A stretch of 64,000 nt of DNA from a virus. The notes under the pieces are model-generated. The model had not been told where the DNA came from. It saw nothing but the letters and a program-made list of their open reading frames with translations, and did no database searches. The stretch's first letter is position 1. Each line of letters begins with the position of its first letter. Location: IMG/VR virus record IMGVR_UViG_3300032214_001486, positions 40,975 to 104,974 of that record; one strand, 5' to 3'. Below are positions 43,719 to 64,000 of this stretch, piece after piece. The translations under genes were made by a program, and so were the position numbers.

Positions 43719-45131
43719 TCAGAACGCCGAGCCCGCAAAGAGGGTAGCACCAAGCTCCCCGCTGCTGAGGGCCAAGCCGTTCATATCGAGCGCCAAACCG
43801 GCGGTTTCACCCGCGGTCGCGGCAGAGGGGGTAACAACGGAGGCCGGTACAGTGGTCTGCGCGCCGGGGTTGGTCCCCGCCGAAGCAGCCGCCGCGGCGG
43901 TCTGCTGCTCAACCGTGGCGATAGCCTGGGCCTTGATTTGCTCCAAGAGAGCGACGCGCTTCTCGGGGGAGAGCGCCGCGATCTTCGCAAACCGTTCCCA
44001 GCCGACCAGACAGATCAACCAACCGAAACGGTGACCGGGGCGGCCCGCGAGCGAGCTAATACCCTGACCGTTATAGTTGATCGCCTGCGTCGGAGCGTCC
44101 CCGAAGGTGCGGTGCCAAGCGTGCTGACCCGAAAGGGCAGCTTGGCCCTCCTGTACGGAGAGATCGGCGGGGGCGTAGTAGGCATCGGCAAGGCTGGCTC
44201 CGCTGTAATCTACAGCGGAGCCCTTACCGAAAGGGACGACATCATAGGCCATCCCGTCGCCAAAGCCGGCAGTATCGGTGAGGGCAAGGCCCGACATATC
44301 GGTGAGAGCGAGGCCCGACATATCAGTGAGGGCGAGGCCATCAAGGTCGTCGTCGTCACCCGACAGATCATCGTCGTCGTCACCGTCAAGGTCGAGATCG
44401 CCAAGATCGCCGGCCTTGTCGGACAGGAAGCGGTAAATGTCGAGCGCGCCGCCTACAAGCAGAGCGCCGACCGCAACCTGATTACGAAGCTCTTTGGAGC
44501 CGACCGGGACAAAATTCAGGACAGTGGCGACAGCGGCGCCCTGTACGGTGAACTTGACCGGCGAAATGGCGCGGAGGGCCGACTTAACAGCCGGGACCGC
44601 GCTCAGACCGCGCATCAGGCCGTAGTGGACAGCGCCCACCGCGACACCGACGAGGATCGGAGAAATGTACCCCGCGACAGTGTTACCGACGACCGGGATC
44701 TTGCGGGCCAAGCCCTCGACCGGAGCGGTAAACTGGTTGCTGAACGCGCCAAAAGCGTTCCGGCGTACAACCTTCTTACCCCGGCGGCGGTTGCCGTGGA
44801 GGTTCATCAGAAGGGTGTTCCGGCGCATACGGCGCATACCGTTCCGGTGCATACCGCGCAGCCCATTCCGGCGGCCGTTGCCGTGAAGGTTCATCAGCAG
44901 GGTGTTCCGGCGCACACCGCGGCGGGCGTTGCGGCGACCGTTGCCGTGAAGGTTCATCAGCAGCGTGTTCCGGCGGTGGGAAGTGTTCCGCCGACGAGCA
45001 GCCCCCTTCCGCTTGCGGTTGGTACGCAGCTTTAACCCAGCGAGAGCGCGAGCAGCGCCCCGCTTCGGGTTAGACTTGGATACGAACAACGCGCCGCTGA
45101 GCGGTGCGCCGTTACGGAACATGAGGGGCAT
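43719..45131 (-). CDS. putative major core/membrane protein: Arg-rich RRN-repeat N-terminus, hydrophobic middle, acidic C-terminal region
   Basis: RRNTLLMNLHGN x3; TM-like segments; GLALTD x3; AAGGAG RBS; immediately upstream of the capsid candidate. Confidence 0.7.
   Translation of the reverse strand: MPLMFRNGAPLSGALFVSKSNPKRGAARALAGLKLRTNRKRKGAARRRNTSHRRNTLLMNLHGNGRRNARRGVRRNTLLMNLHGNGRRNGLRGMHRNGMRRMRRNTLLMNLHGNRRRGKKVVRRNAFGAFSNQFTAPVEGLARKIPVVGNTVAGYISPILVGVAVGAVHYGLMRGLSAVPAVKSALRAISPVKFTVQGAAVATVLNFVPVGSKELRNQVAVGALLVGGALDIYRFLSDKAGDLGDLDLDGDDDDDLSGDDDDLDGLALTDMSGLALTDMSGLALTDTAGFGDGMAYDVVPFGKGSAVDYSGASLADAYYAPADLSVQEGQAALSGQHAWHRTFGDAPTQAINYNGQGISSLAGRPGHRFGWLICLVGWERFAKIAALSPEKRVALLEQIKAQAIATVEQQTAAAAASAGTNPGAQTTVPASVVTPSAATAGETAGLALDMNGLALSSGELGATLFAGSAF
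44790..44975. repeat. three copies of a 36-bp coding repeat (RRNTLLMNLHGN)
   Basis: 44790-44825, 44877-44912, 44940-44975. Confidence 0.9.
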
Positions 45132-45219
45132 GAGGTAACTCCTTTTTTGGAGGTCCAGAGGGGCATGGATGATCTTTGCACAGTCGAACCCGGTTGGGTA
45201 TGTGGTACAACAACACCGG

Positions 45220-45258
45220 AGGCCCTTCGAGGGCCCGCCGAGGGCCCTCAAAGGGCCT
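45220..45258. promoter_or_regulatory. double palindrome, candidate operator
   Basis: AGGCCCTTCGAGGGCCC-GCCGA-GGGCCCTCAAAGGGCCT between divergent genes. Confidence 0.6.
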
Positions 45259-45304
45259 TCACCCCGACCGCATCCCCCTCAATTTCGTGCCGTAGGTGAC
45301 AGAT

Positions 45305-45620: not shown

Positions 45621-46256
45621 TTAGTGCGTGATGCCGTTATTGGGGCAGGTGTATCCGCCGCCGACAATCCAGAAATTGCCGTCCGCAGAAACCGCCAGGG
45701 CCGGCTCGATCCCGCCTTCCTCCCCCATCCGGTGAATGTACTTGCTCGCCGGGTCATCACCCTTTTTGTGGGTGAAGTAGGTGACGTAGTAGAGGATACC
45801 CAGCGGCTTGACGGTCACATCGGGGTAACCGTGCAGGTGGTGCCCGCCAATTTCCTTCGCCAAGTCTTTCAGCTTGATCCGCGAGCTTGACGGCAGCGCG
45901 TTCCATAGCTGCTGCGCGTCCCGCTTGGACGTTTGAGAGAGCAGAATATAGAGGCGCTGATACTTGTGCTTAGGGTCGAAACTCAGGTGATTGTTATTGT
46001 AATCTTCAGGAGGTACTTCAATCAAAGCCAGGGTAGAAGGCTCATTTCCCATGCGGGCCGCTTCCTCGTGAAGCGACTTGGTTTTCACCATACGCAGGTT
46101 GAGCCCTTCTACCGGGTCGAAGTGTAGCTCGGTGAGCAGCCCACACTCCATGAGCGGGTGCTTAGCCGACAAGCCGGGAACATCAAATTCCCGCTTGTGC
46201 GTGGCGGGATTGCCCCAATGCCAATCTTGGTAGATTTCGTTGTACTTGCGCGACAT
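45621..46256 (-). CDS. virion-associated hypothetical protein
   Basis: YQDWHWG...YVTYFTHKKGD...YIHRMGEE...GGGY; last gene of the membrane-protein operon. Confidence 0.65.
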   Translation of the reverse strand: MSRKYNEIYQDWHWGNPATHKREFDVPGLSAKHPLMECGLLTELHFDPVEGLNLRMVKTKSLHEEAARMGNEPSTLALIEVPPEDYNNNHLSFDPKHKYQRLYILLSQTSKRDAQQLWNALPSSSRIKLKDLAKEIGGHHLHGYPDVTVKPLGILYYVTYFTHKKGDDPASKYIHRMGEEGGIEPALAVSADGNFWIVGGGYTCPNNGITH

Positions 46257-46258
46257 AG

Positions 46259-47038: not shown

Positions 47039-47997
47039 GGTTGGGTTTCCTTCCGGCCTTTGCCGTGCGGGGCTTTGTTTGCCTGGGAGTATAGCACAGC
47101 CCCCACACCCAAAACACCCAAACTCAGCCAACCCCACACAGGTACACCGCCGACCTTGCGGGCCATTTGGCCTTGAAAAGACGCTGCTTCTACAGCTTTG
47201 GCCGTATCGACCTGCGCCTGTTGTGCCTGTTGTGCCTGTTCTTGTGCCTGCCGCCGCGCTTCTGCCCGCCGTTCCTTTCGTTCCTCCCGCCGTTCGTCAT
47301 AAGACGCTTCCAACGCTTCGATAAGGGCGATTTTGGCCTCTAACCGCGTCCGTTGCTTTTTGAGCCGGTTCGGGCCGCGCATGATACCAAAAGAGAGGAC
47401 TTGAAGCGTGCGGCGAGCACCGGGGCGGCGCTTCCATTTGCGCTGACGCTCCTTTACTTTGCTCAGGCGTTTCTTGTATACGCCCAACTTTTTGAGCCGC
47501 CAATCTTTCGGTTTGCGCGCTAATTTGATGACAAAGCCCGGTACTTCCTCGGGGTCGGGCAGCCCGAGCTTCTTTGCCCAGGCGATTGCCCGCTTCTTAT
47601 TGACCTTGCGCTGGCGAATACCTTTGACCAGGGCGATTGTGCCCGCGGTCGCCGCGAGCACCCCGCCGACAATCCAACCCACAACCGGGACGGTCGCAGA
47701 CGCCCCCGCCGCTGTGAGAAGGCCCGTGGTGGCCCCGCCGGCAGCTACAGCCCCACCAGCCCCCGCAGCGGCAGCCGCGCCACCCGCGGCAGCAGCCCCG
47801 CCGGCAGCCGCAACGCCGCCCGCAGCCGCGCCGCCCCCGCCGGCAAGCAAGGCGCCGATTTTCAGCCCTTGAACGCCCATGCTGGCCGTATTGGCTACGC
47901 CCTCGGCGGCCATCGCGGCATTTTCGCCGCCAGAGCTAACACCGCCCCGGCCCCAATCCGGGCTGGGCTCGCTGTACGGGGATGGAAGAAAAGCCAT
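47035..47997 (-). CDS. membrane protein with Gly/Ala-zipper N-terminus, basic coil and C-terminal TM
   Basis: GGAAAGG repeats, VPVVGWIVGG, terminal VPVWGWLSLGVLGVGAVLY. Confidence 0.7.
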   Translation of the reverse strand: MAFLPSPYSEPSPDWGRGGVSSGGENAAMAAEGVANTASMGVQGLKIGALLAGGGGAAAGGVAAAGGAAAAGGAAAAAGAGGAVAAGGATTGLLTAAGASATVPVVGWIVGGVLAATAGTIALVKGIRQRKVNKKRAIAWAKKLGLPDPEEVPGFVIKLARKPKDWRLKKLGVYKKRLSKVKERQRKWKRRPGARRTLQVLSFGIMRGPNRLKKQRTRLEAKIALIEALEASYDERREERKERRAEARRQAQEQAQQAQQAQVDTAKAVEAASFQGQMARKVGGVPVWGWLSLGVLGVGAVLYSQANKAPHGKGRKETQP

Positions 47998-48000: not shown

Positions 48001-48792
48001 TCACCCGGTTGCGCGCTGTCGGCGCACGAAGCGGGCTGTTAGACCCAATAAGAGCAAAACGCCGCCCACAACGGTTACTTGGCCGAGTGTCCGCCATGTG
48101 CGCCGGGCGCTCTCTTGTTCCCGCTGTAGCTCGACGCGGCGCTCGGCCGCTTTTAGCTTGGCTTTCAGGACACGAAGCCGGGCCTGTAACGGGCCCCGCA
48201 GAAGGGGCGGGGCCCGCTTGATCATTTTTTGGGTATTCTTGATCCGTGCCCGCAGTACCTCTTGCTGCTGCGTCGGGTCAAGGACTTGTTCTAAGCCCGT
48301 CTTGACCAACGGCGCATACTCTTGGATCATGGCTTCCGTAGAAGCCGAGGACGATGCAGCCTTATCCCCGGCGGGCGCCGCTTCCCCTTCCCCGTAGTCA
48401 GACAGAACAGACGCCCGGAAAGCTCCCCCGGCAGAGCCCGCAAGGTCTGTGGGCGCCCCCGGCTGATCTTCTTCGATCTTGTACTGCAAGTAATTACGGA
48501 CCTTGGCTACATCGTGAGCCGCGGTCGCAATTTTGTAGTGGTTCCATTGGGGGATAACGTCACCGTCCTGTAACAGACGGCGCAGGACGCCCGCATCCCG
48601 CTGGATCTGCGCGAGCGCCGACTTTGCCATTTTGCCTTGATACGGCATAGGGTAGTCGAAATTCCGCACAACCGGGATGGGGGTCGGCATGGTGCCCAGG
48701 CGGGTAACGCCGCTCGGGCCGGCGAAACCGGCGAGGCCGGGGTTAGAAAACACACCGGACAGGTGGGCAAGGTGGCGAGAGCGGTAAGACAT
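48001..48792 (-). CDS. C-terminally anchored membrane protein with an internal helical module
   Basis: YQGKMAKSAL...IPQWNHYKI...VRNYL module bracketed by LAGFAG and LAG/YG; terminal TM. Confidence 0.7.
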   Translation of the reverse strand: MSYRSRHLAHLSGVFSNPGLAGFAGPSGVTRLGTMPTPIPVVRNFDYPMPYQGKMAKSALAQIQRDAGVLRRLLQDGDVIPQWNHYKIATAAHDVAKVRNYLQYKIEEDQPGAPTDLAGSAGGAFRASVLSDYGEGEAAPAGDKAASSSASTEAMIQEYAPLVKTGLEQVLDPTQQQEVLRARIKNTQKMIKRAPPLLRGPLQARLRVLKAKLKAAERRVELQREQESARRTWRTLGQVTVVGGVLLLLGLTARFVRRQRATG

Positions 48793-49175
48793 TACTGTTT
48801 TCCCTTACGCTTTTTGAGTACAACGTAGCCGCCGATCAAAGCCAACCCCAGCACCCCACCGATAATGAGGGGCCAGGGGGTAGCCGCGGGGGGCGCCGCC
48901 GGGGCTGCGACCGCGGGGGCTTGGGCCGGACGGGCCCGCCGACGCCCCCGGCGACGACGGCGACGGCGCAGGGATGCAATCTGCGTGCCCGCGCCGACAG
49001 CCGACGACGTGAGCGTTGACAATGCCCCGGCCCGTTCCTCCGTAAGCCACGGTGTTTTCGCTGTTTTAGTAGCAGCGGCGGCAGCGGCAACGGCCGGCGC
49101 AGCTTCCCCTAAAGCCAGAAAGCCAAAGTGACCTTCCGCCACGGGGAAGCTGTACGGGCTCGGGTTAAAGCGCAT
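48792..49175 (-). CDS. small C-terminally anchored membrane protein with poly-Arg
   Basis: RRRRRRRGRRR, Ala/Pro linker, PWPLIIGGVLGLALIGGYVVL-KKRK. Confidence 0.75.
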   Translation of the reverse strand: MRFNPSPYSFPVAEGHFGFLALGEAAPAVAAAAAATKTAKTPWLTEERAGALSTLTSSAVGAGTQIASLRRRRRRRGRRRARPAQAPAVAAPAAPPAATPWPLIIGGVLGLALIGGYVVLKKRKGKQ

Positions 49176-50596
49176 TAGCTCTGCTTACCCTCTTTCTTGC
49201 CGCTCATGGTGACGAAAAGCAGGATAGCGGCACCAACGCCGACCGGAATGGCCCAGGAGGGCAGACCGCTGGTTTCTTCCGCGGGAATTTCACCTTCCGG
49301 GGCGGGCGCCTCGACCACGACCGGAGCAGCGGCAGCCGCCGCCTTCCGCCGCTTTTTGCCCTTCCGGCGCTTCTTTCGCCCGATAGCACCCGCGACGTTG
49401 GTTGCCAGCCCCGCGGCAAGGGCGACGCCCTTTCCAATGGCTTTGCGCCGAGCTTCCCGGTAGCTTTCCCAAGTACCAATCTCACCCGTGATCGCGTTCC
49501 ACTTCTTCGCGTCCGATTTCTTGATCAAGGTGCCGGTGGGCAGCGCCTTGACGTTGCCACTGACACGAATTTCAATGGTGCCGTCCATAAACTGCCGATA
49601 AACGTAGCCCCCCGAGCCCGCCACATCGCGGTACTGGCTCTTTTTGGGGGCCTTGTAGAGATCGGAGGGGTCCGCGGGCGCGGCAGGCTCGGCGGCCCCC
49701 AGGACCATATCGAGATCGGCAAGGTCAACGCCCGCGTATCCCGCGAAACGCGGTTGATCCTGGCGGATATAGGTGCCCGACCCCATGTAGGGGTAGGTGC
49801 CCCCGGTCAGATCGCGGGGAACCTTGGGGGCCGCCGCGTAGGCGCTCACGTTGGGGTCGCCCCGGCGCATGGGGCTTGTACCTTCCGGCCCGTCAAACAT
49901 TTGCGGGGGAAATTGGTGGCCCTGGGCGGGGTAGGGCGGAACGCGGTGCGGAGCCGGAACAGCGGGCGGGGGAGTCCGCAGGATTAGGCCCGAAAGGTCG
50001 CCGGGCGTGCCGGGCGTGCCGACGGTGCCGGGATTGCCAAAGGCGGCAACCGGCGTGCGCTGCACCATCGCGTTTGCATAGGGTTGAACCGCCGATTGCT
50101 GGGCAGCCTGCTGGGCGGCCTGCTGCTCAAACGCATAGAGCGGGCGTACATTGGTGTCTTGGAAAATCGGCGTGCCGCCCGGCATCTTGTAGAGCGGCTG
50201 GGCGGCGGGGGGCCGATAGAGGTTTTCAGTCGGCTTGACCGCAAAAACAGGGCGAGCGTTCGGCGTAAACATCGCCTGCTCGGCCGATGCTGCCCGGACA
50301 ACCGCGGCGGGCGCAGAAGTCGAGGACAGAGCCGCGGCAGCGGCTTGGGTAACACCCGCCGCTGCGTTGGCCCGCTGTTGGAGCACTTGTAGCTGTACTT
50401 CCCCCTGAACGGCGGACTTTGCAGCTTGTGCGCTCTGTTTTTCTTCGTATTCAGGCGATCCATCGGAGCTTGGCACTTCACCAAACCCCCATTGACCGTC
50501 GAAAGCGTTGATAGCAGTTAGCTCCCCGTTTTGCAGGTCAAAGCCATACACACGGGGGTCCGCGTCAGTGTCATAGGTCGGTACAGAACTGCTCAT
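49175..50596 (-). CDS. C-terminally anchored membrane protein
   Basis: Low-complexity N-terminus, FAGYAG, basic run, LPSWAIPVGVGAAILLFV. Confidence 0.72.
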   Translation of the reverse strand: MSSSVPTYDTDADPRVYGFDLQNGELTAINAFDGQWGFGEVPSSDGSPEYEEKQSAQAAKSAVQGEVQLQVLQQRANAAAGVTQAAAAALSSTSAPAAVVRAASAEQAMFTPNARPVFAVKPTENLYRPPAAQPLYKMPGGTPIFQDTNVRPLYAFEQQAAQQAAQQSAVQPYANAMVQRTPVAAFGNPGTVGTPGTPGDLSGLILRTPPPAVPAPHRVPPYPAQGHQFPPQMFDGPEGTSPMRRGDPNVSAYAAAPKVPRDLTGGTYPYMGSGTYIRQDQPRFAGYAGVDLADLDMVLGAAEPAAPADPSDLYKAPKKSQYRDVAGSGGYVYRQFMDGTIEIRVSGNVKALPTGTLIKKSDAKKWNAITGEIGTWESYREARRKAIGKGVALAAGLATNVAGAIGRKKRRKGKKRRKAAAAAAPVVVEAPAPEGEIPAEETSGLPSWAIPVGVGAAILLFVTMSGKKEGKQS

Positions 50597-50935: not shown

Positions 50936-52396
50936 TCAGGCCGCGGAAGTAGCGCCGCTGGCCTTCTTGTCTTTGCCGTCCTTGCCCTTCTTCTTGGTGT
51001 AGATGTACCCGGCGGCAGCGCCGGCAATCAGAAGGAAGAAAATGGGCTTTTTGTAGAACGGGGTGTCCTCGCCCGCCTCCGGGGCGCCGGCATCCTCGCC
51101 GCCCTCAGCGCCCTCGCCGCCCTCGGCATCCTCGGCATCCTCGGCGCCTTCCGCACCCTCGGCGCCTTCATCCCCTTGCGGAGCGTAGCCGGGGCCCGCC
51201 GCCGGGCCGGGGCCCTGCTCCAACGGTGTCGAATTCGGGAAGGCTTGGAAAGCCCCGCCGCGCTCACTCACCTGCGAAGGCTGGAAAGCCGACGTTTGCG
51301 GAGGAATATACATCGGGCTGGACGGGGCAGAGAATTGGGCCATCTGCTGACGCATCGCCGCCAATTGCTGCTGGTACTGCGCCTGCTGGGCGGCCAAAGC
51401 CTGCGCCTGAGCGGCAGAAGCCGCCTGGGCCTGCTGCTGGGCCAAAGCCTGCTGCTGCGCTTGCATCTGAGCAAGCTGAGCCTGCAAAGCCGCCCGGCGG
51501 GCGAGCCGAGCCTGCATAATCGCGCCGGGTACACCAGGGAGGACAGGGGCCGGCATCCCCGGCATCCCCGGCAGAACAGGACGGGCACCCGCGGCGACAA
51601 CGGCCGGGAGCGCGGCAGCGGCAGCCGCGGGGAACGCAGCCGATGCACCGGGCGCACCCTTTAACCATTGGCCGATGTAAGCCGTCCGGTTCTTACGGAA
51701 ATGGGCAATCGCGCCGGCCTTAGACGCGGCGTTGGGCGCCGGCAGCGCGCTGACGACCTGCGAAACCGCAGCATCATAGCGGGCAACGGCTACACCCGTC
51801 ATGGGACCAGCCGCAAACAGCGGGCGGGTTGTCGCATAAATCCGCGGTTCAAGGCTGCGAATATACTGGACATACCGACCGTGGCGAACGCCCTTAATCG
51901 CGTCAATGCCGACCTTGCCCTTGGCTTCCGCGCGAGCCTTGGCCCGATCTTCCTTCTTATCCTTGCGCGACTTCAATAGCTCCAACGCCGCCTTTTGGCG
52001 CCGGGTTAGCTCCTTACCCTTGCTCTGCCGGCGCTCGACCCGGCGCTCGACCTTATCCTCGGCTCGACCTAATTTCTTCTCTAACCGTTCAATACGGCGA
52101 CCGTAACGACGCTTTTGCCCCTCCGTCTTAGCGTACTTTAGCTTTGCTTTGAGCTTGCGTAGACGACCTTGAAGGCGGGCGATATTCCGGGGGGTAACCG
52201 AGACACCAAGATCGGCGGACAATTCAAGGCCGTCGATCTCCTGCTCGATCTGACCCAATTCCAGGGACATTTTATCCGCGTCGAAATCGGACAGACCCAA
52301 GGCGTTGCCGAGCGGGCCGCGAATGTTAATCGCCCCCGCAAAGTCCATGAGGGCCAAGCCGCTTAGCGAGTAAACGGCGGGGAGTAGGTTCACCAT
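50936..52396 (-). CDS. C-terminally anchored membrane protein with basic coiled coil
   Basis: LSG/FAG/LG-rich N-terminus, K/R coil, Q/A region, acidic EGA repeats, terminal TM. Confidence 0.75.
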   Translation of the reverse strand: MVNLLPAVYSLSGLALMDFAGAINIRGPLGNALGLSDFDADKMSLELGQIEQEIDGLELSADLGVSVTPRNIARLQGRLRKLKAKLKYAKTEGQKRRYGRRIERLEKKLGRAEDKVERRVERRQSKGKELTRRQKAALELLKSRKDKKEDRAKARAEAKGKVGIDAIKGVRHGRYVQYIRSLEPRIYATTRPLFAAGPMTGVAVARYDAAVSQVVSALPAPNAASKAGAIAHFRKNRTAYIGQWLKGAPGASAAFPAAAAAALPAVVAAGARPVLPGMPGMPAPVLPGVPGAIMQARLARRAALQAQLAQMQAQQQALAQQQAQAASAAQAQALAAQQAQYQQQLAAMRQQMAQFSAPSSPMYIPPQTSAFQPSQVSERGGAFQAFPNSTPLEQGPGPAAGPGYAPQGDEGAEGAEGAEDAEDAEGGEGAEGGEDAGAPEAGEDTPFYKKPIFFLLIAGAAAGYIYTKKKGKDGKDKKASGATSAA

Positions 52397-52494: not shown

Positions 52495-52860
52495 TCAGTA
52501 CCCCGCAAGGTAGGCGGCAGCGCCGTAAATCCAGCAGAAGTTATACAACGGCTGGCCCTCGTCGCACAAGCGGAAAGCCTCACGGAATAGTGTATACTCG
52601 GTCAAGTCAGCCTTTTCGCCCTCAGTCGAGCCCCACGACCGTTGTGTGCGGCCAATTTGATCCTCCTGACGGACATGCAGGATCTCAGCCGCCTTCTCCA
52701 AAACAAGCAACAGCCGCGGATCTCGGGATCGGGCTGCGCGCATCCCCTTCTCAGAGAAGGTGTGATTACGCATTTCCATCGCTTCCATCGCCTTGCGGTA
52801 CGCACGCTCTACCGAGTGCAGCGTGATCGGCTCAGGTAGCTCAATTCCAGCGGTCCCCAT
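52495..52860 (-). CDS. hypothetical protein
   Basis: GGGGGG RBS; helical composition. Confidence 0.55.
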   Translation of the reverse strand: MGTAGIELPEPITLHSVERAYRKAMEAMEMRNHTFSEKGMRAARSRDPRLLLVLEKAAEILHVRQEDQIGRTQRSWGSTEGEKADLTEYTLFREAFRLCDEGQPLYNFCWIYGAAAYLAGY

Positions 52861-52886: not shown

Positions 52887-53777
52887 CTATGTGCTTGACT
52901 TCGACCGCTTCGTTGCCAGGGTCTTAATCCCGGTGCGAAGGCGGTCCACTACAAACCCGGAAATCAAACCGACAATGATGATCGGAAAAAAATTGCGCGG
53001 GTGCAGCTTTGTAGTAACCTCTTTCCGTACATGCTGCACAAACGGAAGCGCCGGCCCCGCAGGGATGGGCGGAAGGGCCTCTTGGGCCTCCGAGGCCATC
53101 GCGCTCGCCGCTGCCGGCATGAGGCTGGTGAATAGGGAGGAAGCGGCCCCGTAGCTGATAGAGGGGCCAGCAAGCTCCGGCAGAATTGAAGTCTTTTTCT
53201 TCTTGTGGTGCTGGACAACATCCCACCCTAAAGGAACACCCTGTAGCGTCGGCTCGGCATAGGCCCATTGTTTCGGTACATACGGGGGCCACCCGACCAC
53301 GACATAAATATGCGACCACGAGGCACGCTTTTTGGGTGTGCCTTCAATCCAGCGCACCATTTCGTTGCCGCGCTTTCCCGATAGCACATAACGCCAGGGA
53401 AGTCGCATACTTTCGTAGAGCGCGGCCAAAAGTATCGCCATATCGTCACAATCGCCGTGGCCCACGTCCAGGGTCACCAACGGGTCTTGTAGCCGCTCCC
53501 CGCTTTCATTGGCGTAGTAGATCGACCCTTGAACCCAAGCAAGCATCGCCTCGGCCTGCTGCTTGTACTGTCGGGGCGGGATCTTCGCCGCCTTGCAAAT
53601 GTCAACGGCCAGCTTCGCAATCCGGGGGTCTTTGCCCCCTTTAAGGGCGATCTCCCGCAACGCCGCGATGCGCGTAGGGTCATCCTGATTTTTCCAAGTG
53701 GGAAGGTGGTACACCTTTGTCGTCGCGTCGAGATCGACTTGACGAGTAGGAAACACACCCAATTGCTGCATGGTCAT
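52887..53777 (-). CDS. transglutaminase-like cysteine enzyme (candidate maturation protease) with C-terminal TM
   Basis: GDCDDMAILLAAL (Cys), SHIYV (His), AEPT (acid); ATG at 53777. Confidence 0.85.
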   Translation of the reverse strand: MTMQQLGVFPTRQVDLDATTKVYHLPTWKNQDDPTRIAALREIALKGGKDPRIAKLAVDICKAAKIPPRQYKQQAEAMLAWVQGSIYYANESGERLQDPLVTLDVGHGDCDDMAILLAALYESMRLPWRYVLSGKRGNEMVRWIEGTPKKRASWSHIYVVVGWPPYVPKQWAYAEPTLQGVPLGWDVVQHHKKKKTSILPELAGPSISYGAASSLFTSLMPAAASAMASEAQEALPPIPAGPALPFVQHVRKEVTTKLHPRNFFPIIIVGLISGFVVDRLRTGIKTLATKRSKSST

Positions 53778-55502: not shown

Positions 55503-58216
55503 TCCTCACCTTCCTCGGCGTCGTCGCCGTCGTCGTCGTCGTCATCATCATCATCGTCGTCACCGTCGTCATCGTCCTCGTCGTCAAAGACAATGCCCCA
55601 ATTCATATCGGGAACCAACGGATGCTCTTGGAGCAATTCTACCACGTCGAGGGCCGTGTCCTCGGTGGCCCCTGCGCGCAGTAAGCCCTGATAGACGGTA
55701 TCCTCTTGGAGTAGGACGTAAATACGCTTCTCCGCAGTCAGGGCGCGAATGATCAAGGCTTCCCAAGTGTCTTGGGGCTGCGACTGACACTGTTGTACCA
55801 ACGCGACAAGGGCCGCCTGCGCGGCGTTGCGATCCGAGGGGGACATGCGCTGGGGGCCGGCATTTTGGGCCGGAGCCTGCGCTGGGGCTTGGGCTGGTGC
55901 CTGAGCCTGGGCCGGGATGGACGGGGCTTGAACGGCCTGGGCCGGCTGTACCTGCTGAGCCGGCTGGGCCTGCTGGACCTGCTGAGCCTGGGGAGCAGCC
56001 TGCTGAACGGGTCGGGCTTGCGGAGCGGGGGAAACACCGACAAACGGGGCTTGAACGGGCCTTTGTTGCATCGGCGGCGGCTGCATGGGCGGCTGCTGCA
56101 TCGGCCGGGGCTGCTGCGGGGGCAGAACCCGCGGCATAGTCGGGTTCTGAACGCCCCCGACCATCCCCGGTGCCGGGAGGGCCATGCGGGTTTGCGGGGC
56201 GGGAAGGGCCCGTTGGGGTTGCGTACCCCCCTGGGCACGGCGCTGAGCGGCACCCGAGATCATCTTGGCCTTGGCTACCTCCCCCACGGTCATCATCACC
56301 TTGCCGGCAAGGTCCGCCCAAATTGGGGTATTGTCAGGCTCGGGGGGCGGCGGCGGGTTGAGGAACCGATCTACCAATTGCTTAGGCTCGACGCCCACCG
56401 CGGCCAGTAGGGCGGTCGCCTTTGCAATAGCTTCCTCGACAGAAGTACCCTTGACCGATTGCGCCGCTTGAACGGCCAATTGTAGCTGCATCTGCTGTAG
56501 CTGAGCCATCGCCTGCTCATGCTCCCGCTTCGCTACCTTTTCGTCCTCCAGCCGCTTTAGCTCTAACTCATGGGCGCGCTGGTCGGCCTTCTCTTTCCGC
56601 TCACGCTCGGCCTGCTCGATTTTCTCCTTTCGCTCCCGATCTTCCCGCTCTATCCGCTCCTTTCGCTCTCGCTCCTCTCGATCCAAACGCTCCCGCCGGT
56701 CCCGCTCCTCGCGCTCTGTGCGGTTACGTTCTTCTCGTTCACGCTGCTCAGCCTCAAAACGGCGGGTACGTTCCTCCCGCTCCATTTGCCGTTCCTGCTG
56801 AAATTCTTGGGCGCGGCGCAAAAGCTCGGCCTGAATACTCTCCGCTTGGGATTTCATCTGCGCGACTTGCAGCTCAATTCCCTGCTGCTGTAGCTTCGTC
56901 TGCGCCTCTAAGCGCATACGCTCCGCTTCAATCGAAGTCTTAGCCTCAGCCCGCTGCTTCTCAGCGTCAATCCGCATCTGTTCCAGACGGGCCTTAACTT
57001 CCGCCTCGACTACGGCTTGCCTGCGGTCATGCTCCGCCTGCTGGCGCTGGGCCGCCGCGGCATCGTCGGCCAATTGCTTCGCCAGCTTGCGATCAAACTC
57101 AGCCTGCTCACGGGCAAGCCGGGCGTTGATCGCGGCTTCCTCACGGGCAAGCCGGGCCTGCTCCCGCTCGATTTCAGACTGGAACCGCTTTTCCGTTAGC
57201 TCTTTGTCCAGCCGGGCCCGTTCCGCCTCTTTGTCCGCAGCGATCCGCGCAGACTGTACTTCACGGTCAGCGGCCTGCCGGGAAGCCTCTAAAGTCTGCT
57301 GGAAGAACGCGGCGCTATTGTCCGATAGCTGCTGGCTCTGCGCCCGCATTTGTTCCAAGGCCAGCCGTGCGCGTTCCTGCTCAGCCTGCATCGACTTTTC
57401 AGCGAGCGACTGAATTGCATTGGTGGTAACCGCGTTATTCTGCGCCTGTAGCTCGACCTCGCGGGAAGCGTTGAGGCGCGAACGCTCCTGCTCGGCTTGG
57501 GTCATCTGAAAAGTACGATCCATCGCACTCTGCATCAGGCCGAAAACGCTGTCAGGCACGGGGGGCGGGGCCGCCGGAGGCTGCGGGTAGCCGGGGTAGC
57601 CGGGGTAGCCAAAACCCCCACCGGGTACACCCAACATGCGAAGCTGGCGCTGCCGTTCTTCTTCTTCTTCGCGGGCTCGGAGGGCCTGCAATACCACATG
57701 GTCGGCGCCGATGGTCTTTTCAGTCTCGTGGCCGATCTCTTTGCCATCCCGGCCCAGCGGCCAAATCTTGAATATGGCCCGATCATCACCAGGGCGAGGC
57801 ATTGAGTTACGGAATTTCTTGACGAAATCTTCCTCCGTAGCCTCAGCCGGAATGGTGCCAAGGGACACCCAGGCGCCGTTATCGAGCTTATGTACCTGCA
57901 AACCCAGGACAGCCGGGTAGTTACCCCCCTGGACAAACAGCCGGGGAGAGGACGACCGGCCCGCAAGGGTAGAAATGCGGCTGTCGATGGGCGACTCGGT
58001 AGATACACCGCTAATCTCTACCGGGGCGTTGAGATTTTCTAACGGGGTGTCAAAACCTTCACCGTCGCCCCCTTCCTCAGAATTCTCGTCGTCCTCCTCC
58101 TCAAAAGCAGAGCGAAACCGGGGGGCCGGCGTCGGGCGCTCTGGCCTGGGTCGCCCCCTTGCAGGCCGAGTATCCTCAAAGGCGTTGTCGAGATCATCCC
58201 TACCGCGGATCGGCAT
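55499..58216 (-). CDS. large coiled-coil protein with P/Q-rich region and poly-Asp tail
   Basis: About 350 aa of E/R/Q/A heptads; terminal D-run; ATG at 58216. Confidence 0.8.
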   Translation of the reverse strand: MPIRGRDDLDNAFEDTRPARGRPRPERPTPAPRFRSAFEEEDDENSEEGGDGEGFDTPLENLNAPVEISGVSTESPIDSRISTLAGRSSSPRLFVQGGNYPAVLGLQVHKLDNGAWVSLGTIPAEATEEDFVKKFRNSMPRPGDDRAIFKIWPLGRDGKEIGHETEKTIGADHVVLQALRAREEEEERQRQLRMLGVPGGGFGYPGYPGYPQPPAAPPPVPDSVFGLMQSAMDRTFQMTQAEQERSRLNASREVELQAQNNAVTTNAIQSLAEKSMQAEQERARLALEQMRAQSQQLSDNSAAFFQQTLEASRQAADREVQSARIAADKEAERARLDKELTEKRFQSEIEREQARLAREEAAINARLAREQAEFDRKLAKQLADDAAAAQRQQAEHDRRQAVVEAEVKARLEQMRIDAEKQRAEAKTSIEAERMRLEAQTKLQQQGIELQVAQMKSQAESIQAELLRRAQEFQQERQMEREERTRRFEAEQREREERNRTEREERDRRERLDREERERKERIEREDRERKEKIEQAERERKEKADQRAHELELKRLEDEKVAKREHEQAMAQLQQMQLQLAVQAAQSVKGTSVEEAIAKATALLAAVGVEPKQLVDRFLNPPPPPEPDNTPIWADLAGKVMMTVGEVAKAKMISGAAQRRAQGGTQPQRALPAPQTRMALPAPGMVGGVQNPTMPRVLPPQQPRPMQQPPMQPPPMQQRPVQAPFVGVSPAPQARPVQQAAPQAQQVQQAQPAQQVQPAQAVQAPSIPAQAQAPAQAPAQAPAQNAGPQRMSPSDRNAAQAALVALVQQCQSQPQDTWEALIIRALTAEKRIYVLLQEDTVYQGLLRAGATEDTALDVVELLQEHPLVPDMNWGIVFDDEDDDDGDDDDDDDDDDDGDDAEEGEE

Positions 58217-58269
58217 TTGTACCCCCCTTTTTGGCTTGTGAACAATGCCAATCCCACCCCTAACCGCCT

Positions 58270-58298
58270 TTGACAATAAGGCAAGAGTAGGTTACATT
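58270..58298 (+). promoter_or_regulatory. sigma70-like promoter
   Basis: TTGACA-N17-TACATT. Confidence 0.65.
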
Positions 58299-60000: not shown

Positions 60001-60690
60001 ATGGGAAAGGGGATTTTGGACGAAATCAAGGCGGACGCCGCTGAAAACTGGCTATCTCTCGCCGAGGTAGAAGCCGCAATCCCCGCCATGAAAGCCAAAG
60101 GTGTGTCGGCCGTTGCCCGCGGAGAACAGCGGTCAAAGGTGACAGGGGGCGGGTTTATCGGCGCATACCGGCTCGCGGAGGGCGACCCCGGCACAATGGC
60201 CGATCTACTCGCAACCGCTAATCAAAGCTGGGCAAAACGGCGCATGGACTTTGTTTCTCGCCATATGGCCCAGCTTATCAACCGGGGAGAAGCCCTGTAT
60301 GACGGCAAGGGCAACCCTAAAGGCCGACACTTAGCCCTGATCGCCTGGGCATACACCCCGGACTATGACGGGTTTAAGGCGTGGCTGCGCCGTTCTCGCG
60401 GCGGACTGACGCGGAACGGTAGCCCCTGGAACCCCTGGAAAAAGGTCAATCGACCCGGCTCCGAAGTACAGACCCTCCTATTTGACCGTGACAAGTGGAA
60501 GCTGGGGGAAGCGCGGGACTGGCTCAAAGGTCACGGGTTTAACGGGCTCGGTGTAGACGCTAAGCCTAACAATCTACGGTTCCGGCAGCGGGAACCCTCT
60601 GAATTCCACCCTAATACCTTCCGCACCATTCCGTTTGGCCCGGATAGCGGAATACAAGCCGTTGTCGGAATTCCCTATGAAAAAGCCTAA
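60001..60690 (+). CDS. two-module hypothetical protein joined by LTRNGSPWNP
   Basis: Module 1 GVSAVARG...RHLALIAWAY; module 2 VQTLLFD...RFRQREP...GIQAVVG. Confidence 0.72.
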   Translation: MGKGILDEIKADAAENWLSLAEVEAAIPAMKAKGVSAVARGEQRSKVTGGGFIGAYRLAEGDPGTMADLLATANQSWAKRRMDFVSRHMAQLINRGEALYDGKGNPKGRHLALIAWAYTPDYDGFKAWLRRSRGGLTRNGSPWNPWKKVNRPGSEVQTLLFDRDKWKLGEARDWLKGHGFNGLGVDAKPNNLRFRQREPSEFHPNTFRTIPFGPDSGIQAVVGIPYEKA

Positions 60691-61297: not shown

Positions 61298-61942
61298 ATG
61301 GCGACAGGCAAATCACAGAACGGCTGGCCCGCGTCGCCCAACGCCGCAAGTGTAGGGATTAGGCCCTTTTCGTTTGTGCTGCGGGGGGTTCCCCGTAAGC
61401 TGATGCTGGCAGAGTCCGTCGCACCTCAGCTTATTGAGATCATTCAATGGTGGGACCAGAACATCGAGCCCGTCACGCAGTTAGGTAGCTGGAATTACCG
61501 GGAGATCCGCGGTAAAGAGGGAACAGGGGTTCTATCTAACCATTCCAGCGGAACAGCGGTTGACATTAATTGGGATAAGCACCCGCTCGGGGCGGTGGGG
61601 ACCATTCCGGCGGACAAAGCAGCAGCGTTGCGGGCCAAGGTGTCGAGCCTCGGGCTGCGCTGGGGCGGCGACTACAAGCGCAGGAAAGACGAGCACCACG
61701 TTGAAGTCGCATACGGGCCCCTACAGCACACGGCGGTCGTGCGGGTCCAGCAGGCGCAGCAGGCGATCACGGGTGGAAAAAAAGCCGGTACTGCCGGGGC
61801 CCGGCGAGCCGCAAGACGGCTTTACAAGGAGAGGCGCGCTGTCTATACTGTTACTGCTATCGTATCTGCGATTTTTGTGGTAGGCTTAGGTGGTCTGCTA
61901 CTTCAACGCAAAAAGACAGCGCCGCCGGGAGGGCTGAAATGA
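61298..61942 (+). CDS. M15-family Zn peptidoglycan peptidase with C-terminal membrane anchor
   Basis: SQNGWPA, YREIRG, SNHSSGTAVD, RWGGDY, DEHHVE; terminal TM plus basic tail. Confidence 0.88.
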   Translation: MATGKSQNGWPASPNAASVGIRPFSFVLRGVPRKLMLAESVAPQLIEIIQWWDQNIEPVTQLGSWNYREIRGKEGTGVLSNHSSGTAVDINWDKHPLGAVGTIPADKAAALRAKVSSLGLRWGGDYKRRKDEHHVEVAYGPLQHTAVVRVQQAQQAITGGKKAGTAGARRAARRLYKERRAVYTVTAIVSAIFVVGLGGLLLQRKKTAPPGGLK

Positions 61943-62706
61943 ACGAGGACAATGTTTGCGAAGTTACCCTTGTACGGACTCCGCAAGGGGACTACACGCT
62001 GGCCGGTATTGACGACTACCTCAACGAAGTCGGGGATATGGGCGACGCCGCCAGCCGACGCAAGCGGCGGACAGAGCGGAAAAAGAAGCGGTACTCCAAA
62101 GCCAGCAAAAGCACCCGGAAGGCCGCGATTGCCGCCCGCGTAGCTACCCGGATGGCGATCCGAGCGGGCAAAGTGAAAAAGGGCCGGGTTAGCAAGGCCG
62201 CACGAAACGCCCGGCGGGCTGCCCGTAAGGGTTCGAGCGTGCTGGCGTCGGTTGTCGCCGGTCTAATGGCGGTCGGCCTATCCAAAAAGACCGCTACGGC
62301 CTACGCTAAGCGGGCGATTGCGCTGCTCAGCGGCAAAAAGAGCAAGAGCAAAGGCAAGAGCAAGGGTAAGAGCACCGCGAAGCCCACGGCGGACGAAAAG
62401 CTGGTCGCCGCTGCCACCAACGAGGAGAACGCCGCGGAAGCATCGGGTGAAACCGAGGAGGACGAAGCGGAGGACGAAGGGGAAGGCGAGGACGACCTTG
62501 AGGGTGAAGATGCAGAATTTGACGAGGAATATGACTCGGGCCCCGGCGGTACAGAAGTCGCGGGCTACGGTGCAATCCCCACAATTGATCGCGTCAAGCC
62601 TTTCATCCCCTGGATTGTGCTCGGGGTTGGCGCCCTGGCTATCTGGAAATTCAGCGCGTCCGATGCTCCGGCGGCCGACAAAGCCCCGGCCCGAAAGAAG
62701 CGGTGA
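61939..62706 (+). CDS. C-terminally anchored membrane protein with basic and acidic blocks
   Basis: LAG...MGD, K/R-rich block, E/D block, VAGYG, FIPWIVLGVGALAIW. Confidence 0.72.
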   Translation: MNEDNVCEVTLVRTPQGDYTLAGIDDYLNEVGDMGDAASRRKRRTERKKKRYSKASKSTRKAAIAARVATRMAIRAGKVKKGRVSKAARNARRAARKGSSVLASVVAGLMAVGLSKKTATAYAKRAIALLSGKKSKSKGKSKGKSTAKPTADEKLVAAATNEENAAEASGETEEDEAEDEGEGEDDLEGEDAEFDEEYDSGPGGTEVAGYGAIPTIDRVKPFIPWIVLGVGALAIWKFSASDAPAADKAPARKKR

Positions 62707-62775
62707 TCGAGGGGTAGACCTCCCTCGACCCCCTGTGGTACGATCTGCCGACCCCCATTTCCCCTGGAGAAAACA

Positions 62776-64000
62776 ATGTCCCAAGCTATCCGGTTAGGTG
62801 CGCGACCCGTCGATGATCGGGTGAACGTAGAGCGGGCCTTAGAAGCCTTCAACCGTTTCATGTTCCTAAAGCGCATGGGCGCGCCGCAGTCGGTGACCCT
62901 GCCCGTCGCGCAGCAGGTTGTGCATTACCTGCAAATTGCGCGCCGCTATGTCAACGGCTACGCCCTGGTCAGCGCCTACAGCGGCCCGCACCGGCTGATC
63001 TGGTACAACTTTGTCCGCCGCGCTACCTTTCGCGCATTTAGCGGCGCGGAGTTAGGGGCTGCCGGCGAGCGCAAGAATATCTCGCAAGCCCTGGCCCTGT
63101 TCAGCCAATGGAAGGCTCTGCCGCGGGGAAGCGCGGAGCGCAAGGCGATTGCCCGTCAGATTGTGAGCAACCTGCGCGTTGCGATCAATCAGGACAACGT
63201 ACAGATCGACGAGATCATCAGCGCGTGGACAAACGGTTCTGCTCCGAAGGCATGGCGCGGCTTCGCCCGCCGGGCCCAGGATCGTTCGCGCCGCCAGCAG
63301 GGCCGGGGCCAATACAGCGGCCTGGAATTGTCGGGTCCGCCCGCGCTGAGCAAGCGCCCGAATATCGCGCAGGCTTTGTCTCTCTACAATCAGTGGAAAG
63401 CTCTGCCCAAGGGTAGCTCGGAGAAGCGGACGGTTGCCCGTCAGATTGTGAGCAACCTGCGCGTTGCCGTAAGCAAGGAACGAATTGGGTACGCCGATCT
63501 GGTCAGGGCTTGGCCCCTCGCTATTCCGGGCGGCCAGCCCCCGAAGTCGTGGGTAGGTTTCGCCCGCCGCGCGGCCACACGTTCGACCACGAAGGGCTCG
63601 TACAGCGGCATCGGCATCTACAACAACGCCGACCTACCCATGATGGCCGGGTCCGATCTTAGCCTCGACGGCTTAGGTGACCTCGGGGCCGGCGGTGCCC
63701 GCCTGCGGGCCGCCTCCGAAATGAAGGCCAAGATCGCGGCGTACAAGAAGGATATTTCTGTGTTTGAGGGCCTTCTGAAAGAGGAAGGCTTGGATGCAGA
63801 CGAGAAGGCCAAATACCAGGATAAGATCGACTTCCGCAAGGAACGGATCAAGAAGCTGGAGAAGGGCCTAAAGGAGAAGGCCGAGCGGAAGGCCGGTCGG
63901 CGCCGCTGGGCAAAGTCTGCCGCCGCGACCCTCAACCCCTACGGCTTTGCGGGCGATGATCTCGACGGCGACGATATGGGGTTTTTGGATGACCTCAGCG
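62776..64000 (+). CDS. polyprotein-like protein with three tandem ~90-aa helical repeats (runs off the window; absent from ORF track)
   Basis: GGAG RBS, ATG at 62776, open to window end by my translation; WKALP...ARQIVSNLRVA...W..FARRA repeats; 34-bp identity at 63149-63182 and 63434-63467. Confidence 0.8.
   Translation, partial: MSQAIRLGARPVDDRVNVERALEAFNRFMFLKRMGAPQSVTLPVAQQVVHYLQIARRYVNGYALVSAYSGPHRLIWYNFVRRATFRAFSGAELGAAGERKNISQALALFSQWKALPRGSAERKAIARQIVSNLRVAINQDNVQIDEIISAWTNGSAPKAWRGFARRAQDRSRRQQGRGQYSGLELSGPPALSKRPNIAQALSLYNQWKALPKGSSEKRTVARQIVSNLRVAVSKERIGYADLVRAWPLAIPGGQPPKSWVGFARRAATRSTTKGSYSGIGIYNNADLPMMAGSDLSLDGLGDLGAGGARLRAASEMKAKIAAYKKDISVFEGLLKEEGLDADEKAKYQDKIDFRKERIKKLEKGLKEKAERKAGRRRWAKSAAATLNPYGFAGDDLDGDDMGFLDDLS

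What the first reader, a model, noticed from the sequence alone, without database searches (positions are those of the whole stretch)
43719..64000. Hydrophobic-[S/A/D]-G motif pervades membrane proteins: candidate protease-processing code
Seen: LSG, MSG, FAG, YAG, LAG, YSG, LDG and LGD/FGD/YGE motifs cluster in low-complexity, often acidic linkers of 43719..45131 (DLGD, LSGD, MSGLALTD, FAGSAF), 50936..52396 (LSGLALMDFAG), 49175..50596 (FAGYAG), 48001..48792 (LSG, LAGFAG, LAG, DYGE), 61939..62706 (LAG, MGD, VAGYG), 62776.. (FSG, YSG, LSG, MAG, LDGLGDLG, YGFAG) and in the transglutaminase itself between its catalytic domain and TM (ELAG...SYG). Established: adenovirus (M/L/I-x-G-G/x), poxvirus (AG|x) and ASFV (GG|x) maturation proteases cut at Gly motifs. 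Inference: an analogous maturation system in a bacterial virus, or alternatively a capsid-binding linear motif.
Basis: partly seen in the sequence, partly recalled or inferred. Interest (0 to 1): 0.8.

Follow-up and report, generated by a model that had tools for sequence, protein, structure and literature searches.

The report
Glycine docking motifs in virus membrane proteins
In an uncultured, probably tailless and membrane-containing virus, a few virion-module proteins carry conserved short glycine motifs that look more like docking tags than protease cut sites, although neither role has been tested.

Summary
The quoted strings exist, and the tripeptide is enriched in the 43.7-64 kb block. 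[LMFY][SA]G occurs 38 times against 16.8±4.3 in local shuffles, and the rest of the genome shows no excess. But it does not pervade the membrane proteins. The excess sits in five proteins, its context is not more acidic than background, and only about a third of testable instances are conserved in orthologs. Several conserved ones lie inside folded domains.

The real signals are narrower:
- A longer unit, D-Φ-x-G-Φ-[A/G]-Φ-[D/T/S], forms variable-copy tandem arrays (0-6 copies) in the family of the 43719-45131 protein. It recurs in three or four unrelated module proteins.
- A Φ-Φ-x-G tail lies 1-3 residues from that family's C-terminus.
- There are strictly N-terminal tags, including F-x-P-S-x-Y-S on tail-anchored proteins.

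Adenovirus, poxvirus and ASFV cleavage consensus motifs are not enriched. A transglutaminase-like enzyme with an intact catalytic triad is conserved in the module, so cleavage cannot be excluded. Terminal positions, variable tandem copies and the extended hydrophobic pattern fit docking motifs better.

Other first-stage notes of this scan describe the same stretch.

The parts
43719..45131 (-). 470-aa bridging protein, the main motif carrier. It has an N-terminal tag, an Arg-rich region with three 12-aa repeats (44790-44975), hydrophobic segments, an acidic tandem-motif array, a globular domain (G-H-R-F-G-W) and a motif-bearing C-tail.
   Evidence: Translation. 40 orthologs in related loci. 347 representative clusters for the C-terminal half. 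The 6-mer motif occurs 44 times against 5.5 expected in the family.
45063..45110 (-). N-terminal tag of the 43719 family (A-P-L-S-G-A-L-F-V-S-x-x-N-P).
   Evidence: Nearly invariant across orthologs, with L-S-G kept in 21/28.
44253..44402 (-). Acidic linker with a tandem array of the D-Φ-x-G-L-A-L-T-D unit (3 full copies).
   Evidence: PSSM scores are 20.5-22.2. The DNA period is 24 nt with 2.8 copies at 90% match. I read the copy differences as synonymous, by eye from the printed DNA, with no dN/dS computed. Copy number is 0-6 in relatives.
43722..43811 (-). C-terminal tail with two more motif copies and the terminal Φ-F-A-G-S-A-F-COOH.
   Evidence: Φ-Φ-x-G lies within the last 12 residues in 97 of 132 family representatives, with 1 or 3 residues after the Gly.
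52331..52396 (-). N-terminus of the 486-aa coiled-coil, Gln-rich, tail-anchored protein. An N-terminal tag (L-L-P-A-V-Y-S) is followed directly by L-S-G-L-A-L-M-D and F-A-G.
   Evidence: PSSM hit of 11.0 from a model trained only on 43719-family orthologs. N-tag regex hit.
49973..50002 (-). Motif copy (D-L-S-G-L-I-L-R-T) upstream of the Pro-rich segment of the 473-aa tail-anchored protein.
   Evidence: PSSM score 8.1. A Φ-x-G-Φ-x-Φ-like word sits at the same place in 9 of 10 orthologs despite diverged flanks.
49709..49753 (-). F-A-G-Y-A-G-V-D-L element of the 473-aa protein.
   Evidence: Y-A-G is kept in 6/10 orthologs.
52887..53777 (-). Membrane-anchored transglutaminase-like enzyme. The catalytic core is 53208-53561, the L-P-E-L-A-G-P linker element is 53163-53183, and a C-terminal TM with basic tail follows.
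   Evidence: Pfam PF01841, E 2.3e-10. C110 and H156 are invariant, as are both candidates for the third triad residue, E175 and D186. L-P-E is invariant, but A-G is replaced by Q-G, S-S, Q-P or G-V in distant relatives.
52498..52527 (-). C-terminus of the conserved 121-aa protein, ending L-[A/C]-G-[Y/L/F]-COOH.
   Evidence: Kept in 24/24 orthologs.
48712..48771 (-). N-terminus of the 263-aa protein carrying L-S-G-V-F-S-N-P and L-A-G-F-A-G.
   Evidence: Not conserved in orthologs (0/14). It resembles the 43719-family N-tag.
61990..62046 (+). N-terminal L-A-G-I-D-D-Y-L-N-E-V-G element of the 255-aa tail-anchored protein.
   Evidence: Invariant in 5 homologs of 62-76% identity. In the second site (62518-62583), Y-G-A is conserved but the preceding V-A-G is not.
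62776..63999 (+). Protein with three repeated ~100-aa domains. Each is followed by [F/Y]-S-G-Φ-x-Φ (63031-63057, 63307-63336, 63595-63690). A coiled coil and N-P-Y-G-F-A-G (63931-63999) follow. The copy is cut short by the contig end.
   Evidence: Homologs are 445-466 aa and end in a TM anchor. The motifs are conserved. Two homologs lack the middle domain, with the junction at Y|S-G. One homolog has an inserted Y-A-G-L-A-L-D-M-N-G, the same word as in the 43719 C-tail.
47968..47997 (-). N-terminal F-x-P-S-x-Y-S tag of the 320-aa tail-anchored protein. A second copy lies at 49146-49175 on the 127-aa protein.
   Evidence: There are 17 regex hits in 230,038 aa (83 related loci) plus the 24 window query proteins. 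All lie at residue 2-4 after a start codon or an in-ORF Met.

Best explanation
The loose tripeptide lumps several different things together. The functional core is a set of short linear docking or assembly motifs in exposed termini and linkers of the virion-module proteins. The virus is an uncultured, about 105-kb, probably tailless and membrane-containing virus.

The main motif is D-Φ-x-G-Φ-[A/G]-Φ-[D/T/S]. It is repeated in tandem in the 43719-family bridging protein, whose layout is an Arg-rich N-part, hydrophobic segments and an outward-facing C-half. Single copies occur in three or four unrelated tail-anchored proteins.

I infer three things:
- These peptides, the near-C-terminal Φ-Φ-x-G tail and the strictly N-terminal tags bind a common virion partner. 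That partner could be the capsid inner face or another module protein.
- They bind as short extended strands.
- They thereby tether the membrane and matrix proteins into the particle. Tandem copies would give avidity.

Shown: enrichment, conservation, positions and copy-number variation. Inferred: exposure, binding and the partner.
For: 1. A PSSM built only from orthologs of the 43719 protein finds 5 copies in that protein. Elsewhere in the module it finds 4 hits against 0.5 expected at score 8 or more. The rest of the genome gives 1 against 0.9 at score 9 or more.
2. Tandem copy number varies from 0 to 6 before the globular domain and 0 to 4 after it, among 132 family representatives. That is typical of multivalent motifs.
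3. By eye, the three DNA copies of the 8-aa unit differ only at synonymous sites. No dN/dS was computed.
4. Conserved copies sit at the chain ends. Φ-Φ-x-G lies 1-3 residues from the C-terminus in most of the family. L-[A/C]-G-Φ-COOH is kept in 24/24 of the 121-aa family. N-tags occur only at residues 2-4.
5. The motif holds its position in the 49175 family while its flanks diverge.
6. The same word appears in non-homologous proteins: A-G-L-A-L-D-M-N-G in the 43719 tail and in a homolog of the 62776 protein.
7. At least 11 module proteins end in a TM helix plus a basic tail. The adjacent conserved protein gives weak jelly-roll matches, Z 5-6, on a low-confidence model. That is a setting in which membrane-to-shell tethers are expected.
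Against: Outside the 43719 family the statistical support rests on four hits. The within-genome co-variation of motif flavour between two families was only a trend (3.0 vs 2.53 identities of 6, p 0.06, n 9). The membrane-containing, tailless architecture is itself inferred. The capsid model has pLDDT 53, and no packaging ATPase was found. A conserved Cys enzyme in the same module leaves processing open.
Confidence: 0.4

Rival explanations
1. Processing code. The membrane-anchored transglutaminase-like Cys enzyme (52887-53777) cuts at Φ-[S/A]-G sites. This would trim termini, separate the repeated domains of the 62776 protein, and release the enzyme's own catalytic domain from its anchor.
For: The enzyme is conserved in every relative with enough flank. 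Its Cys and His are invariant, as are both candidate third residues, E175 and D186. Its nearest solved relative by sequence is annotated as a putative cysteine protease (3isr, E 1.5e-3). LapG, a transglutaminase-like protease, cuts at P-A-A-G and A-A-A-G sites (PMC6890996). Motifs fall at domain borders in the 62776 family and after the catalytic domain of the enzyme. In the window's 48001-48792 protein, a tag that is N-terminal in all orthologs lies just after D-L-A-G-S-A-G-G-A.
Against: Cutting tandem 7-8-aa units, or removing 1-3 C-terminal residues, has no obvious purpose. Copy number is not conserved. The conserved pattern extends four residues past the Gly. The A-G after L-P-E-L is lost in distant enzyme orthologs. 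The internalised tag in 48001-48792 has lost its otherwise near-constant Pro and Tyr, which is not expected if cleavage re-exposed it. Known viral protease consensus sites are not enriched. The enzyme is not a LapG-family member by Pfam.
Confidence: 0.2
2. No common function. The enrichment would sum unrelated causes: recent tandem duplication, duplicated domains, Gly turns in folded domains, small-residue packing in TM helices, and a post-hoc, very degenerate pattern.
For: Only 13 of 39 instances are conserved. The conserved ones include sites in folded domains and TM helices. The excess sits in five proteins. Two of those contain internal repeats. G-Φ-[SAD] is also raised, at 53.
Against: The excess survives local shuffles at z 4-5 and is absent from the other 81 ORFs. 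The longer unit is 8-fold enriched across the 25 family ORFs scored in the related loci. It also recurs in non-homologous proteins. Terminal positions are conserved across a family of 347 clusters.
Confidence: 0.25
3. Gly-directed transpeptidation. The Cys enzyme would expose the near-C-terminal Gly, as Atg4 does for Atg8 or sortase does for LPXTG substrates. It would then join that Gly to an amine, either a lipid head group or a Lys. Separately or as well, the enzyme could cross-link the Gln- and Lys-rich low-complexity proteins as a true transglutaminase.
For: Φ-F-x-G is followed by 1-5 residues at the C-terminus of most family members. The enzyme has a papain-like fold and sits in the same membrane-anchored set. 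Gln-rich tracts are kept in orthologs of the 50936 and 49175 proteins.
Against: This is purely an analogy. About a quarter of the family lacks the Gly tail by the regex. No acceptor is known. No member of this enzyme family in viruses has been characterised, as far as the searches show.
Confidence: 0.07

Closest known systems
Maturation-protease site codes of adenovirus ((M/I/L)-x-G-G|x, (M/I/L)-x-G-x|G), poxvirus (A-G|x) and ASFV (G-G|x)
   Same: Both involve short Gly-containing words that recur in several virion proteins of one virus. Both also have a Cys enzyme encoded in the structural gene block.
   Different: Those consensus words are not enriched here: 13 vs 8.5, 8 vs 8.4, 72 vs 79 and 54 vs 59. 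The enzyme here is transglutaminase-like, not an adenain-like clan-CE protease. The motif here extends past the Gly, comes in variable tandem arrays and hugs the chain termini.
LapG / bacterial transglutaminase-like cysteine proteinases cutting adhesins at [T/P/A]-A-A-G (PMC6890996)
   Same: Both have a transglutaminase-like Cys-His fold. Both recognise or could recognise a small-residue plus Gly word in an exposed linker.
   Different: Pfam assigns the viral enzyme to PF01841 only. The word [TAP]-A-A-G is at most weakly raised (9 vs 5.3). LapG is periplasmic, calcium-dependent and cuts once per substrate.
Short docking peptides in virus assembly, such as terminal peptides of scaffolding, cement and membrane-linker proteins of icosahedral viruses including internal-membrane viruses like PRD1, PM2 and HHIV-2 (from general knowledge, not tested here)
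   Same: The motifs are terminal or linker peptides on otherwise unrelated proteins of one particle. The carriers are tail-anchored membrane proteins encoded next to jelly-roll-like capsid genes.
   Different: There is no sequence or family relation. The genome is several times larger than known tailless membrane-containing prokaryotic viruses. The tandem multivalent array and the N-terminal F-x-P-S-x-Y-S tag have no described counterpart that I know of.
C-terminal Gly processing of ubiquitin-like proteins (Atg8 by Atg4; from general knowledge)
   Same: An aromatic-x-Gly is followed by 1-5 dispensable residues at the C-terminus, and a papain-like Cys enzyme is present.
   Different: The 43719 family has no identified ubiquitin-like fold. 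No conjugation machinery was found. The Gly is missing in part of the family.

Membership tests
Adenovirus-type protease site code | (M/I/L)-x-G-G|x or (M/I/L)-x-G-x|G recurring in virion precursors | tested here: not met
   13 observed vs 8.5±2.8, and 8 vs 8.4±2.8, in 22 ORFs under local shuffles.
Poxvirus / ASFV protease site codes | A-G|x or G-G|x sites over-represented in structural proteins | tested here: not met
   A-G-x 72 vs 79.1; G-G-x 54 vs 58.7.
Clan-CE viral maturation protease (adenain, I7, pS273R) | A gene for such a protease in the genome | tested here: inconclusive
   Pfam scans of 50 ORFs, including all module ORFs, gave no such family. The remaining ORFs were not scanned, and the record is about 85% complete.
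Transglutaminase-like superfamily (PF01841) | Profile match above the curated cut-off | tested here: met
   41.2 bits against a cut-off of 23, E 2.3e-10, residues 73-165.
Transglutaminase-like superfamily (PF01841) | Conserved Cys-His-Asp/Glu catalytic triad | tested here: met
   C110, H156, E175 and D186 are invariant in 10 orthologs of 45-63% identity.
LapG / BTLCP proteases | Match to the BTLCP profile, and di-Ala-Gly substrate sites | tested here: not met
   Only PF01841 was reported at E up to 0.01. [TAP]-A-A-G gives 9 vs 5.3, z 1.9.
Bacterial lipoprotein lipobox (L-[A/S]-[G/A]-C) | Cys directly after the tripeptide, behind a signal peptide | tested here: not met
   None of the 62 instances is followed by Cys.
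Sortase LPXTG sorting signal | LPXTG pentapeptide directly before a TM helix and basic tail | tested here: not met
   TIGR01167 matched only the TM-plus-tail part (profile positions 10-33 of 34, 18.6 bits) of the 48792-49175 protein. No pentapeptide is present.
Short linear docking motif (operational definition) | Conserved short word in non-homologous proteins, in exposed regions, with diverged flanks | tested here: met
   Exposure is inferred from low-complexity context only.
Short linear docking motif (operational definition) | A defined binding partner | not testable with these tools

The most novel reading that the evidence does not exclude
The conserved membrane-anchored transglutaminase-like Cys enzyme reads the Φ-x-G words. 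It would act as a maturation protease, or as a sortase- or Atg4-like transpeptidase that exposes the near-C-terminal Gly and links it covalently. This would give a prokaryotic membrane-containing virus an enzyme-driven maturation or cross-linking step, built on a fold not used for this in any known virus.
Probability: 0.2. Interest if true: 0.85.

Novelty: new variant of a known kind. Interest (0 to 1): 0.5.

Why it matters
The carrier proteins belong to a large, uncultured virus lineage. One protein family alone has 347 representative clusters from freshwater and marine metagenomes. GenBank phages hold no tblastn match to the two conserved module proteins searched, and the protein folded with confidence has no recognisable fold.

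Its structural module is almost entirely orphan. The conserved terminal tags and the tandem motif are therefore the only handles so far on how the particle is put together. They predict which proteins are in the virion, which ends are exposed, and which peptides to use as baits.

If the Cys enzyme turns out to read the motif, this would be a new kind of viral maturation chemistry.

Tried and rejected
The planned co-fold of the 43719 C-tail with the enzyme domain and the 211-aa protein was never run.

**Structure searches**
- The 211-aa protein (45621-46256) folds confidently (pLDDT 90). It matched nothing in Foldseek PDB, and the best VIA-align wide hit had Z 3.4.
- The capsid candidate (42955-43701) folded poorly (pLDDT 53). 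Its jelly-roll matches at Z 5-6 are only suggestive.
- ESM Atlas gave weak PRD1/PM2-capsid leads for that protein (0.75-0.77). It gave nothing for the 43719 globular domain.

**Sequence searches**
- PDB sequence searches of the enzyme gave only 3isr at E 1.5e-3.
- PHROGs gave no hits for ten module proteins.
- NCBIfam gave no sorting-signal family apart from a generic TM-plus-tail match.
- tblastn of two conserved module proteins against GenBank phages gave no match.
- Pfam terminase, HK97 capsid and FtsK profiles gave no match in the genome.
- The 62776 protein was not found in two related IMG/VR records.

**Statistical tests that did not support a claim**
- The acidic-context test for the loose motif was negative.
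- Co-variation of motif flavour between the 43719 and 49175 families within genomes was a trend only (p 0.06, n 9).

**Ideas considered and dropped**
- Lipobox: no Cys follows any instance.
- LPXTG: no pentapeptide.
- RTX nonapeptide: the period is 7-8, not 9, and it is only partly G-G-x-G-x-D-like in some relatives.
- Eukaryotic LIR, NPxY and xylosylation motifs: the host is presumably bacterial, since an M15 peptidase is present.

**Literature**
- Literature searches found no described virus of this kind and no virion transglutaminase-like maturation enzyme.

Full report
**Setting**

The window is the last 64 kb of a 104,974-bp IMG/VR virus record, estimated 85% complete. From about 39.7 to 58.3 kb on the minus strand, and from 58.3 to 64 kb on the plus strand, lies a block of almost entirely orphan genes.

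Pfam recognises only two things there. One is a transglutaminase-like core in 52887-53777. The other is an M15 peptidase in 61298-61942. PHROGs recognises nothing in the ten module proteins scanned.

At least eleven proteins in the block end in a hydrophobic helix followed by a short basic tail. For the truncated 62776 protein, this was shown by its full-length homologs.

The block is syntenic in many metagenome contigs from lakes and oceans. Two highly conserved proteins lie downstream, 42955-43701 and 42032-42727. The first gave a low-confidence model (pLDDT 53). Its best structural neighbours are viral jelly-roll proteins at Z 5-6.

Pfam profiles for terminase, HK97 capsid and FtsK-type ATPase found nothing in the genome. 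GenBank phages hold no tblastn match to the two conserved module proteins searched. A tailless, membrane-containing virus is therefore a reasonable but unproven frame.

Every quoted string is there. The counts are:

| Pattern and region | Observed | Expected |
|---|---|---|
| Φ-[S/A/D]-G, 22 ORFs of the block, whole-protein shuffles | 62 | 36.8±5.8 |
| Φ-[S/A/D]-G, same ORFs, local 10-30-aa shuffles | 62 | 38-39±5.7 |
| Five order-permuted patterns, same ORFs | 36-53 | - |
| [LMFY][SA]G, same ORFs | 38 | 16.8±4.3 |
| Φ-[S/A/D]-G, other ORFs of the genome | 114 | 105 |
| [LMFY][SA]G, 81 other ORFs | 40 | 42.9 |

So there is more here than Gly content.

The description overreaches in three ways.
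- The excess comes from five proteins, not from the membrane proteins in general.
- Among 83 related loci, only the 43719 family and the enzyme family are enriched. Unassigned ORFs sit at 0.95-0.99 of expectation and the capsid-like proteins are depleted.
- The context of the loose motif is no more acidic than background.

Conservation is also limited. Only 13 of 39 instances testable in ortholog alignments are conserved in at least half of non-redundant orthologs. These include sites inside folded domains and next to TM helices. None of the four in 48001-48792 is conserved.

**What is actually there**

The strongest signal is a longer unit. I built a position matrix from 62 instances in orthologs of the 43719 protein, leaving the window's own copy out. 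It reads D-[M/F/Y/L]-[S/G/D]-G-[I/L]-[A/G]-[M/L/V]-D-[L/N]-G.

With that matrix:
- The window's 43719 protein has five copies, scoring 14-22.
- Other module proteins give four hits at score 8 or more, against 0.5 expected. These are the N-terminus of 50936-52396, 49175-50596, 60001-60690 and the 62776 protein.
- At score 9 or more, the rest of the genome gives one hit against 0.9 expected.

In the 49175 family, a Φ-x-G-Φ-x-Φ-like word keeps its place just before a Pro-rich segment in nine of ten orthologs. The flanks have diverged beyond alignment.

In the 62776 family, an [F/Y]-S-G-Φ-x-Φ word follows each of the two or three repeated domains. One homolog carries an inserted word identical to one in the 43719 C-tail.

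The tandem array in the 43719 family varies from 0 to 6 copies before the globular domain and 0 to 4 after it, across 132 representatives of 347 clusters. By eye, the three DNA copies in the window differ only at synonymous positions. No dN/dS was computed.

**Terminal signals**

Most of the 43719 family ends in Φ-Φ-x-G followed by one or three residues (97 of 132). In the nearer relatives, short C-terminal extensions recreate a Gly at the fourth position from the end.

The 121-aa family ends in L-[A/C]-G-Φ in all 24 orthologs. The first 20 residues of the 43719 family, which hold L-S-G, are nearly invariant.

Separately, the word F-x-P-S-x-[Y/F]-S occurs 17 times. The scan covered 230,038 aa from the related loci plus the 24 window query proteins. 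Every hit directly follows a start codon or an in-ORF Met. Nearly all are on proteins that end in a TM anchor, across at least three families per genome.

The window's 48001-48792 protein is instructive. Its orthologs start with that tag. The window copy has instead gained a 124-aa N-terminal extension, and the tag, now internal, has lost its Pro and Tyr. The new N-terminus resembles the 43719-type tag.

**Protease code or docking motif?**

For a protease:
- The transglutaminase-like enzyme is present in all relatives with enough flank.
- Its Cys and His are invariant, as are both candidate third residues, E175 and D186.
- It is anchored like its putative substrates.
- Its nearest solved relative by sequence is annotated as a putative cysteine protease.
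- LapG shows that this fold can cut at small-residue plus Gly sites (PMC6890996).
- Motifs fall at domain borders in two proteins.

Against a protease:
- The adenovirus, poxvirus and ASFV consensus words are not enriched.
- The enzyme is not a LapG-family member by Pfam.
- The A-G after the invariant L-P-E-L is lost in distant enzyme orthologs.
- Cutting tandem 7-8-residue units, or trimming one to three terminal residues, has no evident use.
- Copy number is free to vary.
- The conserved pattern runs four residues beyond the Gly, with alternating hydrophobic positions.
- The internalised tag has decayed rather than being kept for re-exposure.

These features fit short docking peptides that need free ends or act multivalently. 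I rate that at 0.4. I give enzyme processing 0.2, a heterogeneous non-functional mix 0.25, and Gly-directed transpeptidation or cross-linking 0.07. About 0.08 is left unassigned.

A second possible protease exists. An H-E-L-A-H word lies in the 900-aa protein 34395-37097.

**Limits**

The partner is unknown. Exposure of the motifs is inferred from low-complexity context. Support for sharing beyond the 43719 family is modest.

Other first-stage notes of this scan describe the same stretch and the same motif idea. I treated them as leads and re-tested what I used.

Noticed in passing
47968-47997, 49146-49175, 52331-52396 (minus strand); also L018, L020, L022, L023, L025, L027, L028, L047, L057: A strictly N-terminal tag, M-x-F-x-P-S-x-[Y/F]-S. 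There are 17 hits across the related loci (230,038 aa) and the window's module proteins. All lie at residue 2-4 after a start codon or an in-ORF Met. Nearly all are on proteins ending in a TM helix plus basic tail, in at least three families per genome.
   Followed up: partly
48001-48792 (minus strand): Orthologs are 115-170 aa, and most of those inspected begin with the N-terminal tag or a variant of it. The window copy has a 124-aa N-terminal extension. Residues 43-106 of the extension are a small domain also found in other ORFs of distant relatives (L050, L036, L033, L040). The tag is now internal and degenerate, and no start codon lies near it.
   Followed up: partly
45621-46256 (minus strand): This is the most widely detected protein of the module (55 of the chosen ORFs in the related loci match it). 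It folds with pLDDT 90 but matches no solved fold (best Z 3.4). It has invariant H13, E37, D94, H97, H175 and E179, plus near-invariant H45, H90 and H140. It may be a metal-binding enzyme rather than a capsid protein.
   Followed up: partly
34395-37097 (minus strand): A 900-aa protein with a weak GHKL ATPase match carries an H-E-L-A-H word at residue 802. It is a possible zincin-type protease next to the structural block.
   Followed up: partly
44790-44975 (minus strand): There are three copies of a 12-aa unit (R-R-N-T-L-L-M-N-L-H-G-N) in the Arg-rich N-part of the 43719 protein. Relatives carry R-R-N-[G/S]-L-A-L-x-x-N-R-R units instead. The L-A-L core therefore also occurs in a basic context.
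   Followed up: no
62776-63999 (plus strand) and the first 200 bases of the genome record: The 62776 ORF is cut by the contig end. Its homologs add about 38 residues with a TM anchor. The acidic ORF tail at the start of the record is therefore not its continuation.
   Followed up: yes
50936-52396, 49175-50596, 55499-58276 (minus strand): Long Gln-rich tracts lie beside Lys/Arg-rich tracts. They are kept in the L022 orthologs of the first two. These could be substrates if the enzyme were a true cross-linking transglutaminase.
   Followed up: no
whole genome record (G000): The replication genes include a family-A DNA polymerase fused to a uracil-DNA glycosylase domain. There are also three SNF2-type helicases, a DNA methylase, a PD-(D/E)XK nuclease and a tyrosine recombinase. 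No terminase, HK97 capsid or FtsK-type ATPase profile matched.
   Followed up: partly
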